Positions 12,611 to 18,145 of a stretch of DNA of 58,284 nt are shown here, in pieces (position 1 is the first letter of the stretch; each line of letters opens with the position of its first letter). Below the pieces are notes generated by a model, which worked only from the letters and a program-made list of their open reading frames with translations, had not been told where the DNA came from and did not search any database. This DNA is from Aplysia californica (taxonomy: Eukaryota): the NCBI RefSeq assembly GCF_000002075.1, contig NW_004797441.1, positions 524,402 to 582,685 on the forward strand, given 5' to 3'. The position numbers were made by a program, and so were the translations under genes.

Positions 12611-15600
12611 GTATATCAATTTTCTTTTACTTTATTACCTTGTTATTATCTGGTGCCTTTTTTTTTGTAGCTTACTGATCCTGCTACGTTTTATTTTTGT
12701 CACTCATTCAAATTGTTGAGAGGTAGTTTTTTCCCCCTTCAAGGAGAACCTTGATTTATTAAATTAAAACATGTATTCTCTGAATCTGAAAAATGAGAAC
12801 TGAACAATGATGAGTTTTCTTTCTTCACTCATACTCCGAGTCTTTATTTGTGTGAAACACAGCAGTACAACACAAAAATCAATGTAATGAAATACGTGAA
12901 AGCTAATCAATTTAGTTTTACAGTAAGAGTGAATATTCAGCACAGATCAATGTTATTTATTGTGTGCACATTTAAGTCTCCAATGAATATAGAAAGAGAA
13001 AATTGGGGAAGTTTTTTTGTCCCCCCCCCCCCCCCGGGCGGAGCCACTGACTGAAATGTCTTTAGGCCATTCCCAAAGCGGGAACGTTTCTTGTTCTTAT
13101 GCACAGCAGAATTGTAAATGGGCTGATTCAACAATGTCACGCTCATCACTGTGCCTGAACTACAACAGGGAACTGCTTCTTTTTCTTTCCTAGTCCTTAC
13201 TATCGTCATTTTCCTTTACTTCTTTTATATGTTTGTCACACTCTTGTGACCCACTATTTCCAGGGTGCCTTGAAAGTCGAAGCAGACTTTGTGCTGTTGA
13301 AGCTAGAGAGGTGAGCAGAGTAAGTCTGTTTCCCTGTGAAGACTTCTCTGTTGACATCCACCCTTTTGCGCTCATATGACCTCATGCAGTTGCGAGCGCC
13401 GTAATACGTCTACTATATATATATATATATAATATATATATGTATATATATAAAGATATATATATATATAAATGATATTATCTATCAGCCTCTTCTTGGT
13501 GATCCTGTGTCGTTATTTCATTTATCAAAGAATTGTTAAATATGTTTGAATTGTTGCATTTTAAACAACTCATCAGTTGAGTTGATGCACAATTTCATAA
13601 TTACAATGTACTTTTTAAATCTGCAAATCATTATTGTGTTGAAGCCTGGGTCTATTCAAACCGTCTCTGATGTGTTCATTGGTCTGTACAGTGGGGGGGG
13701 GGGGGGGTTTCTCCAACTAGAGATTTTTGTGCCTGAATAAAGTGTGCCCTTACAGCAGATATATGTACGCGAAATAAGTGTGTATTAAGAACATGTCGTA
13801 GCTACGAGAGCCTGTCCTGACCGTACGTGTATTACGTCTTGAGATACTTTACTATGATGTGATGACCAGAGCTACATTTCATACATGAGATATACAGGAG
13901 TTTTACTGAGACTGACAACGAATATATTACAGACGTGGTTTTGTTGTGTTCTGATCAGGGACACCAGATGCGTGCGTGAGTGACGTTAGCTTGTACTGAG
14001 CGGAGAGGAAGAGCTTAGATAAGTAAAAGAATTCACTCCTCATCAGCGCCATCCCTGGTCCCTGCCGCCTCAGTCTAAATCGGCATCACTTCTTTGGCTC
14101 ATTCTCTTTGAGCTGTTGAAAGCTTTTGTTCCCGTGGTTTGACGTCCCTGCATGATCAGCATCGCGAAAGTTTTCCTGAACTCAAAAGAAAGAGTGAAAT
14201 AAATCACTAAGTTTGTGATCGGTGTCATGCTGTCCAAAAACAGGAAAGTTTCGTCAGTGAGCAGATACATGTTTGTTTCTTTTTTTCCTTGGCCAAAATC
14301 TGGTAGGAAGGTGCTTATAATGCGAACCATAGGCTTCAGGGACACGAGGATTGTGTAGAGAGTTGAGGAGGTGACGATCATAATGTTCGTTTGCCGCCTT
14401 CTCTGGGACTGTGGTTGGCTCTGCTCGGCGTCGATCTTCCCGGCCAGCTGTTTGTTATGCCTGCGCTGATGCAGCACGAGTGAGATGATTGTGAGGATGT
14501 TGAGGATCAGGGCCACGCACATGGGTATGTAGCGGAACAGCACGGCAGCCACCGTCTGGCACACTTGGTATGTGTAGAAGGCCTGAGGAGCGGACACGGC
14601 AATGACTTTCACTATGTTTGTCGACTGGAAAGTCTGGTTCCAGTTCAATTTTGGCGCGGCATCAACATAAAACAGTACCACTGTGGAAGTCTGGAATAAA
14701 CACATACTGACCACTACAACAGATACCAGTATTTTGGGGAATTTGTAACAAAGGAATTTTGTTGTCTTGTGGGCAAACGGAAAGGCAATGGAGTAAAACC
14801 TCTCTGCCACAAGGAAACTGTTTATGAGAAGGCTGATGCGTCCGAGACTGTCAGGTAGCCAAAGGACCACAGTTGTGAAGTATGTCGAGTACGCGGACTG
14901 CCATGTCAAGGGCGTATCGTGCACGATTACTCTGAACACTCTGTTGGTGAGGTAAGACAAGCTCTTGCAACCGTCTGAGAATATAAAGGCGATGAGCATC
15001 ACTTTTGCTTGATGGGCTATCTTTTGGTGGTACAGGACCAGCACTGATATCACGGTACTCACCAGAGCCATGGACAGAGGGATTATTGTGATCGTCCGGA
15101 AAATCTTGAAATAAGCGATTATTTCTGCGAAAGAGATCGTTCCTTTTGCAGCTTTCTTGGGGTTAGCTGGTTTATTTGAGACGGAAGTTTGATTTTTTAA
15201 CTGTGCCCGTGTTTCATGTGTCTCACATGCACCCTCCTTGTCGGTTTCCAAGTGAGTGCCGTTTTCTGAGGACGTTTTGTTCTCTGTGCCATTGGTCGAT
15301 GACTGACAGAAACGTTTAAAGTTTATCGTGTGCAAATATTCATGACTTCGGTTTGAAGTAGTTGTTAGACTTGTCAAATTCATTGTCATTTCAGAACTGT
15401 TGGTCATGACTTGAGAATCGAGTAGTGCGACAGTGCTGGTTCCTAGTAGGTCAGCAGTCGGTGTCACTGTGTCGGCCAGGGCCGTTATATTGATTATTTC
15501 TGAATTATTGTTCCAAACGGCCGAATCAAATAGGACTGTGCTGTTTTCTAGCGGGTTACTGCCAAGTGCTACTCTTCTGACACGTGCTATTCTCTTCTTA

Positions 15601-18145
15601 GCCCTGCGTGTATATTTAGGTGTTTCCTTCATTCTATAAGCCTTGCGTGCATATGTAGGTCTTTTATCCATTCTGTAAGCCGTTATTCTTCTCCCACTGC
15701 CTTGTGACTGAGCCCCCCGAAAGTCGTATGGTGGTGTTGGTTGGAGGCTTGAGGATTCAGTTGCGCCGTCTTTGTTCTGTTCTCTCTGCACATACACGTT
15801 TTCAGGAGCTGTGGGAAAATGCACAGAACAAGGCATGTTTTCATATGTCATGAGTGCATTGCCTGTCTGGACACGGAATGTGTTGTTTCGTGTGGGTGGT
15901 TATTGTGGCCTTCTTTTGGTTCTCTTACTGGCAGTTATCTTAACCTGTTTTTTCCTAAGGCGTTTGTTATTGGGCTGGCTCGCTGTCATGTTATTTCAAA
16001 CTCAGATAGCTCTTGGTGCCATGAAGATAGATAGATAGATAGATAGCGTAGTGCATATGTAAGAGATGCAACCTCCTTGGTTATTGAAGAAAGCGCACGA
16101 ATGTCTATATTCAGATGGATAAGTTTCTTGCGTCACATTGTCTCTGATGCGCCTTTTCTTTGGATGTGTCTTTCTTCCTCTATTTTTCCTCTTACCGTCT
16201 GGCATATCGCCACAATTTCGGAACCACCTGCCAGTATGTTTCTAGAAGACCATTAAAGTGAGACAACAGCAATTCAAGACTCAGCTGATCGTATAAGTGT
16301 CTTTACTGGTTTGGACTCGTTATCTGCCCCGTGTTCTGCACTGGGGGCGTATTGATAATGAGTGAGCTGACTATTTCATTTTAGTCATATGGTTTTACTG
16401 CTCTTGCAACACGATTAGGTAATAAAAAAGGACGAAGATTAGAGGTGTTACAAGAGAGCAACAAACACAGTAAAGGAGGAGGAGACATTAGGACAATATA
16501 GATGTTTGATAGGAAAGAAGGAGCTACCCACACAAAACTGCCGCTACTCTCTCTTACGAGCTGACTATGACTGAGAACCAGGGAACACATTATGCATGTC
16601 AGGGTTTGGGTTATTTTTGGTTAATATCGAGAAGCACTGTTTCCCCCTTTTTTACGCAAAGCATTCCCTGAATACTCGGCCTTACACTCTACAAAAGATA
16701 ATACTTGGATGAGTAGAGAAGTTGTGCGAAAGAAAGTTGGCGTGGAGCGAAAGGTAATCTCACTCTTCATTGGACGGGCCCTGTTGCCTGCCGTTGCTGT
16801 ACCGTCCTTGTCTGTGGGTTGGCTGTTCTGCTGTGAGGCGGCGGCAATCGCAACGACGAGCACAAACGTGAGTCGAATCTCTCTCTGTACCCTCCACCGC
16901 TGCCTAGCGGGGGAGACTCTTGCTCTGCTACAAACCATCTCGTCACGTCAGACTTGGGTAGAATGTTGGGCTTGTTTAGGTTACTGCTGCTTATAAACCA
17001 TCCAATGTTTCACCTTCAATGGTGATTTTTACTTGATTACTTGACAGCTGAGTCTTCAACTTTATGTCTAAATGGTGAGGATTAGTTAAGGGGATAATGT
17101 GACCTGTTTGTGTTGAAAGGGCCGTAAAACTCTTACTAAACTAAAAGTTAGAGGGATTTCCAGAAAATCTTGGACACGAGAGGCACTAATCCCCTCAAGT
17201 CATTGTTGGTTTCGATCAACCGTCTACTTCATATACCGCGTTTTGAAAGGGCGAGCTATAAAGCACCACTTTGGATTATCTTCATCGAGAGCGACAGATG
17301 ATGCGAAGTTCACTCTCAGATGATGGCTCAGTTTGTGTTCTGTGAGTGCCCATTAGTTTCAGGCGGATTCTTTTGCGTCTCCGACTGTATCTCGAGTAGG
17401 CCTACTATAGTACTAAAAGTGTAAGTGGGCACTGATCGATTTTGTTGATCCTATGAGACTAGCAGGGTTTGTTTTGTTTTTATTTAAGCGTATATGTTAG
17501 TTTGACGCATGTAGCGTTTTGTGGAATGGCTGTTCAAGAATACCCGAGAGCTGACAGACGAATGGTGGGCACGCCGTTTGTTGTTCGGTTTCTCACCCGG
17601 GTCTTTTCTGGCGAGTTCCTTGCGATCTCATGTTTACCTCAGTCCTATTCCAGAATTATGTTGAAGTTCGATGTCCAGTCTCTTAGTAAATTACCGCATT
17701 GCCGGGAAAGAGGTCAACAGTGTGTGTGCATATGTGTGTGTGCGCGCGCGGGCGTGTGTGTGTGTGTGTGCGCGCGCGGGCAGGTGTGTGTGTGTGCGCG
17801 CGCGCGCAGGTGTGTGTGTGTGATGGTTGGGGGGGGGGGGATAAACACTTGCTCACCAGTTGGAGTTGCAGCCCCTTCTGATGGTTGAATATCTCACATG
17901 ATAAAAATGGTCTCTTCTCAGGGTACTTATTTACTATATTATTATAGTCTCTGCTTTCTTTCCGCCATTTCTCCTTCAGTGTTTCCGAACATCCAAGTGT
18001 TCCTTTTCTCAACAGTTCATGTACTTGTCTCGAGTTGGGCTTAAAGCTCAAAAAAAAAAAAAAACAAGCAATAAAAAGGCATTGTGAAAAACTGGAAGAA
18101 AATGAAGACATCTCCGACGATAATGTTTGGTGGGCGTGGTTGAAG

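What the first reader, a model, noticed from the sequence alone, without database searches (positions are those of the whole stretch)
14070..16938. Orphan peptide/chemoreceptor-like GPCR nested antisense inside the first coding intron of UROS
Seen: an intact 7TM ORF on - lies wholly within the 7.7-kb UROS intron 12611-20337, by far the largest coding intron of the gene. Known: UROS is a housekeeping haem/porphyrin enzyme, and gastropods have expanded FMRFamide-receptor-like GPCRs with few or no introns. Inference: this is a lineage-specific insertion. Convergent transcription could lower UROS output in cells expressing the receptor, coupling a signalling or sensory cell state to porphyrin flux.
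Basis: partly seen in the sequence, partly recalled or inferred. Interest (0 to 1): 0.7.

Follow-up and report, generated by a model that had tools for sequence, protein, structure and literature searches.

The report
Orphan receptor gene inside UROS intron
An unbroken reading frame predicted to encode a very divergent seven-membrane-helix receptor lies backwards inside an old intron of a sea-slug haem-pathway gene (UROS); this gene-within-a-gene layout is common in animals, the receptor likely arrived there by chance, and the proposed effect on porphyrin production is untested.

Summary
Observation confirmed. A 609-codon open frame (minus strand, 14070-15899) lies in UROS intron 12611-20337, the largest coding intron (7,727 bases; next 1,747). 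My eight-exon UROS model is identical to NCBI's Aplysia californica protein. Spliced RNA contigs support the 12610-20338 join indirectly, and the intron position is shared with human UROS. The frame gets no Pfam hit, but it folds confidently as a class A GPCR. It belongs to a small, old subfamily: one paralog at 36-38%, seven relatives at 32-36%, four of them named sea slugs. It is not an AcCR chemoreceptor or a member of a young expansion, and FMRFamide binding is untested. The likely protein has two exons, 637 residues, a signal peptide and a glycosylated N-terminus of about 290 residues. Polymorphism hints at purifying selection. Its own transcription is not shown. Two Plakobranchus relatives lie on other contigs than UROS, so the nesting does not look conserved. 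Nothing links it to UROS output. Opposite nesting is common, and the scan noted a similar layout on other DNA (e1-7683715). Verdict: a real, apparently unannotated orphan receptor in an ordinary nested layout.

The parts
14070..15808 (-). Receptor main coding exon (predicted acceptor at 15808): Ser/Thr-rich N-terminal region with 10 N-glycosylation sequons, seven membrane helices, helix 8, stop at 14070-14072
   Evidence: Open frame 14070-15899; model; fold matches; sequons and acceptor
16764..16938 (-). Predicted receptor exon 1: ATG at 16938, signal-peptide-like hydrophobic stretch (residues 25-33), phase-1 donor
   Evidence: Donor and acceptor phases fit; 9-residue hydropathy 3.23 against 0.39 for the single-exon start; splice not seen in reads
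15809..16763 (-). Predicted receptor intron
   Evidence: GT-AG ends; a 1-base insertion allele at 15825 in run X1 falls here; one depth-2 contig crosses 15808 unspliced
12510..12610 (+). UROS first coding exon (ATG 12527)
   Evidence: Match to P0091; depth in its bin equals about 100 bases of the spliced UROS contig in X11 and X15
12611..20337 (+). UROS host intron, phase 0, same position as human c.63+1; holds the receptor, dispersed repeats and an N run at 18181-19017
20338..27309 (+). UROS coding exons 2-8
   Evidence: Exon 2 hits Pfam HEM4 PF02602 at 8e-08; whole model identical to P0091
13705..18180 (.). Block repeated letter for letter on small contig G000:C2527 (L021), probably an assembly leftover
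   Evidence: 4,476 of 4,476 identical
12631..12961 (-). The only canonical AATAAA signals (5) on the minus strand between the receptor stop and UROS exon 1; possible receptor 3' ends, inferred

Best explanation
This is an unbroken, likely functional gene for a predicted orphan class A G-protein-coupled receptor of a small sea-slug subfamily, which likely moved into an old UROS intron and is likely a passenger there. Shown: the open frame, its place on the opposite strand, the UROS exon chain, the shared human intron position, the subfamily. Predicted: seven helices, a two-exon 637-residue product with a signal peptide and a long glycosylated N-terminus. Inferred: it is transcribed from its own promoter near 17 kb in few cells or at low level and senses a peptide or environmental cue. 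UROS splices the intron out normally, and any interference is small because the two genes are seldom active at once.
For: Intact 609-codon frame although the nearest paralog is only 36-38% identical. Model pLDDT 91.2, pTM 0.88; all 46 listed PDB fold matches are class A receptors. Atlas first hit 0.97, mollusc 7tm_1/Srw clusters. Eight-row clade, SH-aLRT 100, stem 1.32, in a quick tree of 49 rows. 4 of 5 listed coding differences in other animals are synonymous (P 0.011-0.045). Run X1 differs at 18 of 3,435 non-coding bases but 1-3 of 1,739 coding bases (P 0.001-0.02). Spliced UROS contigs of about 1.9 kb in X11 and X15. Plakobranchus UROS is on a 3.07-Mb contig, its two receptor relatives on contigs of 855 and 641 kb. 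Nested genes favour the largest, most 5' host intron (PMC11694760).
Against: No minus-strand or spliced receptor transcript was seen; receptor pieces in RNA contigs are at depth 2-5, like intronic pieces in the same runs. One contig crosses the predicted acceptor unspliced. No Pfam family is hit. The polymorphism tables were cut, 4 further differences in pieces that overlap the frame are unlisted, and two listed ones come from contigs under depth 5. No listed contig bridges the repeats at 13035-13699, so the link to UROS exon 1 rests on the assembly.
Confidence: 0.72

Rival explanations
1. Regulatory coupling: receptor transcription converges on UROS and lowers it in receptor-positive cells, which would divert hydroxymethylbilane to uroporphyrin I.
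For: The geometry is convergent. The nearest canonical minus-strand poly(A) signals lie 20-350 bases from the UROS exon 1 donor. Low UROS goes with uroporphyrin-coloured tissue in Clanculus (PMC5723588, passages). Nested pairs are less co-expressed than neighbouring pairs in C. elegans (PMC12274878).
Against: No expression data tie the two genes. The layout does not appear shared with Plakobranchus. Clanculus lowers UROS with no nested gene reported in the passages read. In the dissected worm case the nested gene induces its host.
Confidence: 0.07
2. The gene is silent or newly decaying: the frame is still open but no longer expressed.
For: No transcript of its own strand was shown; pieces in RNA contigs are at intronic background depth. 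The protein is absent from the 15-billion collection as far as the searches show (best hit 35%; exact look-up negative).
Against: No stop or frameshift in 609 codons, synonymous bias and low coding divergence between animals; helices and family-invariant residues kept.
Confidence: 0.11
3. Assembly artefact: the block 13705-18180 belongs elsewhere and was joined into the UROS intron.
For: The block also stands on contig C2527, ending at a poly-G run on one side and continuing 3,087 bases where the window has 837 N. X1 contigs break at repeats between 13035 and 13699.
Against: The window has no N between 12610 and 18180. The C2527 extension ends in a (TC)n run like the window's resumption at 19018, and outside a multi-copy repeat it matched no other place as a continuation. 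X1 depth is flat at 53-60 over the receptor, as in neighbouring unique stretches; the tool warns this is no copy number.
Confidence: 0.06
4. The receptor promoter drives an extra, 5'-shortened or cell-specific UROS transcript (positive coupling, as for ceh-10 in polq-1).
For: Precedent in C. elegans (PMC12274878); the predicted receptor start lies about 3.4 kb or more upstream of UROS exon 2.
Against: No plus-strand start was seen in the intron; a transcript without exon 1 would lack the first 28 codons, which align with the human enzyme's N-terminus.
Confidence: 0.04

Closest known systems
Opposite nested protein-coding gene pairs (567 pairs in C. elegans, PMC12274878, abstract and sections 6 and 13 read; mammalian catalogue, PMC11694760, abstract and section 5 read)
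   Same: Whole coding region inside one host intron, opposite strand, in the largest and most 5' coding intron.
   Different: Host is UROS; a search for UROS + intron + nested + GPCR gave 0 papers. Co-expression is unknown here.
Lophotrochozoan Srw-like / 'FMRFamide-receptor-like' class A GPCRs (Pfam PF00001, PF10324; Atlas clusters)
   Same: Class A fold, ERF at the end of helix 3 followed by IAFP, no cysteine at 3.25, intron-free membrane region.
   Different: Below every Pfam threshold; 20-28% identity at best to these; separate long-stemmed clade; N-terminus of about 290 residues with predicted signal peptide.
Aplysia candidate chemoreceptors AcCRa, AcCRb, AcCRc (PMC2700072, passages read)
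   Same: Rhodopsin-like, conserved arginine at the end of helix 3, few introns, same species.
   Different: No ITAFxTFERC motif, 637 rather than 319-433 residues, long N-terminus, not clustered.
Its own subfamily: paralog at G000:C196:1142773-1144119, Elysia chlorotica RUS81023.1, Plakobranchus ocellatus GFN96074.1 and GFN97599.1, Elysia marginata GFR88395.1, three unnamed proteins
   Same: 32-38% identity over the membrane region, 18 invariant columns; long Ser/Thr-rich N-termini in the four full-length relatives.
   Different: All are named hypothetical or unnamed; no ligand known; neither Plakobranchus copy shares a contig with UROS.

Membership tests
Class A (rhodopsin-like) GPCR | Seven membrane helices plus helix 8 in the class A fold | tested here: met
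   Predicted model, pLDDT 91.2; 46 of 46 listed PDB matches are class A receptors, TM-score by query 0.52-0.65
Class A (rhodopsin-like) GPCR | Arginine 3.50 in an E/DRY-like motif | tested here: met
   ERF; R invariant in 61 of 61 aligned rows. The numbering scheme is recalled.
Class A (rhodopsin-like) GPCR | Pfam 7tm_1 gathering score | tested here: not met
   No family at E up to 1; 4 of its 7 closest relatives hit 7tm_1 at E under 1e-3 and 1 of 7 passes the cut-off
Class A (rhodopsin-like) GPCR | Helix 3 to loop 2 disulfide (cysteine 3.25) and NPxxY in helix 7 (typical, recalled, not universal) | tested here: not met
   Position 3.25 is T, V or R in 8 of 8 rows that reach it; helix 7 reads ITNLVIY. 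The disulfide is also absent in lophotrochozoan expanded receptors (PMC11886862).
Class A (rhodopsin-like) GPCR | Ligand-dependent G-protein coupling | not testable with these tools
   Needs expression and a signalling assay
FMRFamide receptor | Orthology to deorphanised FMRFamide receptors | tested here: inconclusive
   Only an automatic cluster name; no named FMRFamide receptor was in my tree; best PDB sequence match is neuromedin U receptor at E 0.014
AcCRa/b/c chemoreceptors | (F/W)ITAFxTFERC motif, short N-terminus, 319-433 residues | tested here: not met
   Motif absent, N-terminus about 294 residues against PMC2700072
Lineage-specific expansion (Nath et al., PMC11886862) | Species- or genus-specific paralog cluster without orthologs in other orders, in tandem | tested here: not met
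   Two loci in the genome on different contigs, plus the C2527 copy; clade shared with sacoglossans; criteria from section 31. One-to-one orthology is unresolved.
Opposite nested gene | Coding region wholly inside a host intron on the other strand | tested here: met
   transcript ends of the receptor are unknown
Opposite nested gene | Both genes transcribed | tested here: inconclusive
   UROS spliced contigs seen; receptor pieces have no strand and background depth

The most novel reading that the evidence does not exclude
A sea-slug-specific orphan receptor with a long, possibly furin-cleaved N-terminus is switched on in skin or mantle cells, and its convergent transcription runs up to the UROS exon 1 donor and throttles UROS, so that these cells make uroporphyrin I. 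This would be a built-in cis switch tying a receptor-defined cell state to porphyrin pigment.
Probability: 0.06. Interest if true: 0.75.

Novelty: new member of a known kind. Interest (0 to 1): 0.28.

Why it matters
As it stands: it adds an apparently unannotated receptor, missed by Pfam, to a model neurobiology animal, and defines a small old sea-slug subfamily with long N-termini that could be deorphanised. It also warns that unstranded reads in this intron cannot be given to either gene. If the coupling were true it would offer a mechanism for how some gastropod tissues lower UROS to make uroporphyrin, which the Clanculus work observed without a cause in the passages I read.

Tried and rejected
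Word-index protein search with residues 255-609: 0 of 4,731 candidates scored; the full HMMER search then found the relatives. Pfam: no family for the frame. Atlas search of the N-terminal 222 residues: no usable hit. Sequencing runs: no RNA holder listed on record among 24 runs, which is no evidence on expression. Raw poly(A) runs X16-X18 (one study): depth 0 in the four bins 14441-16308, but UROS 5' exons were nearly bare too, so uninformative. The joint rows for 12610-20338 and 16764-15808 were not among the 15 shown of 92. Host gene around the C196 paralog: 3 of 120 open frames of 62 or more residues in 40 kb hit Pfam (reverse transcriptase, endonuclease, ALKBH8_N), none a clear host exon; short exons would be missed. 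dN/dS between species: not possible, nearest relatives are at 32-38%. Single-exon start at ATG 15851: disfavoured (no signal peptide; an insertion allele at 15825 would shift it) but not excluded. Dead retrocopy: disfavoured (open frame, no close parent gene). Earlier findings by place and by sequence: nothing. Literature: 0 papers with UROS + intron + nested + GPCR; no Aplysia uroporphyrin statement in the passages read of PMC5723588 and PMC4930200. Supplements were not read; those of PMC11886862, which mined genomes, may already list this gene.
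Full report
Observation. The minus strand holds one 609-codon open frame at 14070-15899, far beyond chance. The plus strand holds UROS: exon 20338-20500 hits Pfam HEM4, and my eight-exon model with seven GT-AG introns gives a 254-residue protein identical to NCBI's Aplysia californica UROS isoform X2. A genome search finds one full UROS locus, here. The frame lies in intron 12611-20337 (7,727 bases); the next largest coding intron is 1,747.

Is the UROS join real? In one search, runs X11 and X15 each have a contig of about 1.9 kb that covers exon 2 from 20336 and goes on for about 215 further letters. 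The depth in the bin holding exon 1 equals 102 and 100 bases of that contig, and the exon is 101 bases. The joint row itself was hidden among 77 rows not shown, so this is indirect. The NCBI protein is an annotation and may rest on the same assembly. The intron is old: Aplysia E28/V29 align with human R21/E22 (chain 1jr2, offset 21), and human UROS has a splice donor at c.63+1 (PMC11391836, passages).

Is the placement real? Contig C2527 repeats window 13705-18180 at 4,476 of 4,476 bases and then runs 3,087 bases on where the window has 837 N. That extension holds a 1.5-kb multi-copy repeat and ends in a (TC)n run, as the window resumes at 19018. The simplest reading is an under-sized gap or another haplotype, not a mis-join. 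Run X1 covers introns evenly and so behaves as DNA of another animal; its depth is 53-60 over the receptor, as in unique stretches nearby, though the tool warns this is no copy number. Its listed contigs break at repeats between 13035 and 13699, so the link to exon 1 rests on the gap-free assembly. I leave 6% for an artefact.

What the protein is. Pfam gives nothing. The Atlas places it with mollusc and nematode 7tm_1/Srw clusters at 0.97. HMMER over 1.84 billion representatives gives 89 hits, 7 of them at E under 1e-30 and 32-36% identity; 4 of the 7 are named, from Elysia and Plakobranchus. No representative reaches 50%, so the protein seems unannotated. The genome has one paralog, on C196. 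In a quick tree of 49 rows these form an eight-row clade with support 100 on a stem of 1.32, apart from the other own-genome receptors; the five rows P0001, P0002, P0004, P0005 and P0006 group together, and the window gene's sister is unresolved. The model from a 61-row alignment has seven helices and helix 8 at pLDDT 91.2, and all 46 listed PDB matches are class A receptors at 10-17% identity. It keeps R3.50 but lacks cysteine 3.25 and NPxxY (numbering recalled). It fails the AcCR features (PMC2700072, passages) and the expansion criteria of PMC11886862 (abstract, passages and section 31). It works like a divergent class A receptor; 'FMRFamide receptor' is only an automatic label.

Gene model. 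A phase-1 donor at 16764 fits a phase-1 acceptor at 15808, giving 637 residues with a signal-peptide-like stretch, an N-terminus of about 294 residues, 10 glycosylation sequons and 22% Ser/Thr. Two of the four full-length close relatives also begin with a strongly hydrophobic stretch. An insertion allele at 15825 in X1 falls in the predicted intron and would break a single-exon start at 15851. Against this, one depth-2 contig in X6 crosses 15808 unspliced.

Alive? Of 5 listed coding differences in other animals, 4 are synonymous (P 0.011-0.045). X1 differs at 18 of 3,435 non-coding bases in four listed pieces, predicting 9 in the coding exon; 1-3 are seen. The tables were cut and 4 differences in overlapping pieces are unlisted, so this is a hint. 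RNA contigs of four studies carry short receptor pieces at depth 2-5, but they were picked for holding it, have no strand, and match intronic background. Expression is not shown.

Origin. The intron is shared with humans, while the subfamily was named only from sea slugs, so the receptor likely entered the intron. Plakobranchus UROS lies on a 3,065,558-base contig and its two relatives on contigs of 854,931 and 640,518 bases. Further Plakobranchus copies could be hidden in the clustering, and no other species could be tested.

Coupling to porphyrins. The idea has a real hook: low UROS activity yields uroporphyrin I, and UROS mRNA is lower in uroporphyrin-coloured Clanculus tissue (PMC5723588, passages); uroporphyrin occurs in the skin of some shell-less gastropods (PMC4930200, passages). 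That Aplysia skin holds uroporphyrin I is recalled and was not found in these passages. The nearest canonical poly(A) signals would bring the receptor's 3' end within 20-350 bases of the UROS donor. But no data link the two genes. Opposite nesting is common: 567 pairs in C. elegans, less co-expressed than neighbours on average, and the nested gene more often goes with host expression than the converse (PMC12274878). Nested genes prefer the largest, 5' intron (PMC11694760), so the size and place of this intron are expected.

Verdict. A real, likely functional, apparently unannotated orphan receptor of a small sea-slug subfamily in an ordinary nested layout. New member of a known kind; interest 0.28. 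The regulatory reading stays open at about 6-7%.

Noticed in passing
G000:C2527 (L021) against window 13705-18180: A 7,563-base contig repeats the receptor block exactly and extends 3,087 bases; the extension holds a 1.5-kb repeat with dozens of copies at 81-84% identity, transposase-like by a recalled Tc1/mariner motif.
   Followed up: partly
G000:C196:1142773-1144119 (L003): The only paralog: a 449-codon open frame, 36-38% identical, with a shorter N-terminus and a hydrophobic leader; also without Pfam hit in the part scanned and apparently unannotated.
   Followed up: partly
window 15560-15690, minus strand: The receptor N-terminus has a basic, twice-repeated AYRM motif region ending in RVRR, a furin-type site (recalled consensus); relative P0003 has RKRR before its Ser/Thr-rich stretch. 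Possible cleaved pro-region.
   Followed up: no
G000:C351:159124-159442: Two UROS-like pieces at about 70% identity with stop codons, covering residues 76-154; probably a decayed partial copy.
   Followed up: no
window 23980-24341: NCBI's UROS isoform X1 reads through the donor at 24065 into the intron and loses the C-terminal 68 residues of X2; probably intron retention.
   Followed up: no
window about 3900-4017: Probable non-coding first exon of UROS: about 115 bases are left on the RNA contig and a GT donor follows 4017; it would make a 5'-UTR intron of about 8.5 kb.
   Followed up: partly
window 42476-48434, plus strand: A multi-exon C2H2 zinc-finger gene.
   Followed up: no
window 1141-2202 and 13031-13415, 22950-23336: A reverse-transcriptase fragment, and two copies at 88% identity of a short repeat that draws very many RNA reads.
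   Followed up: no
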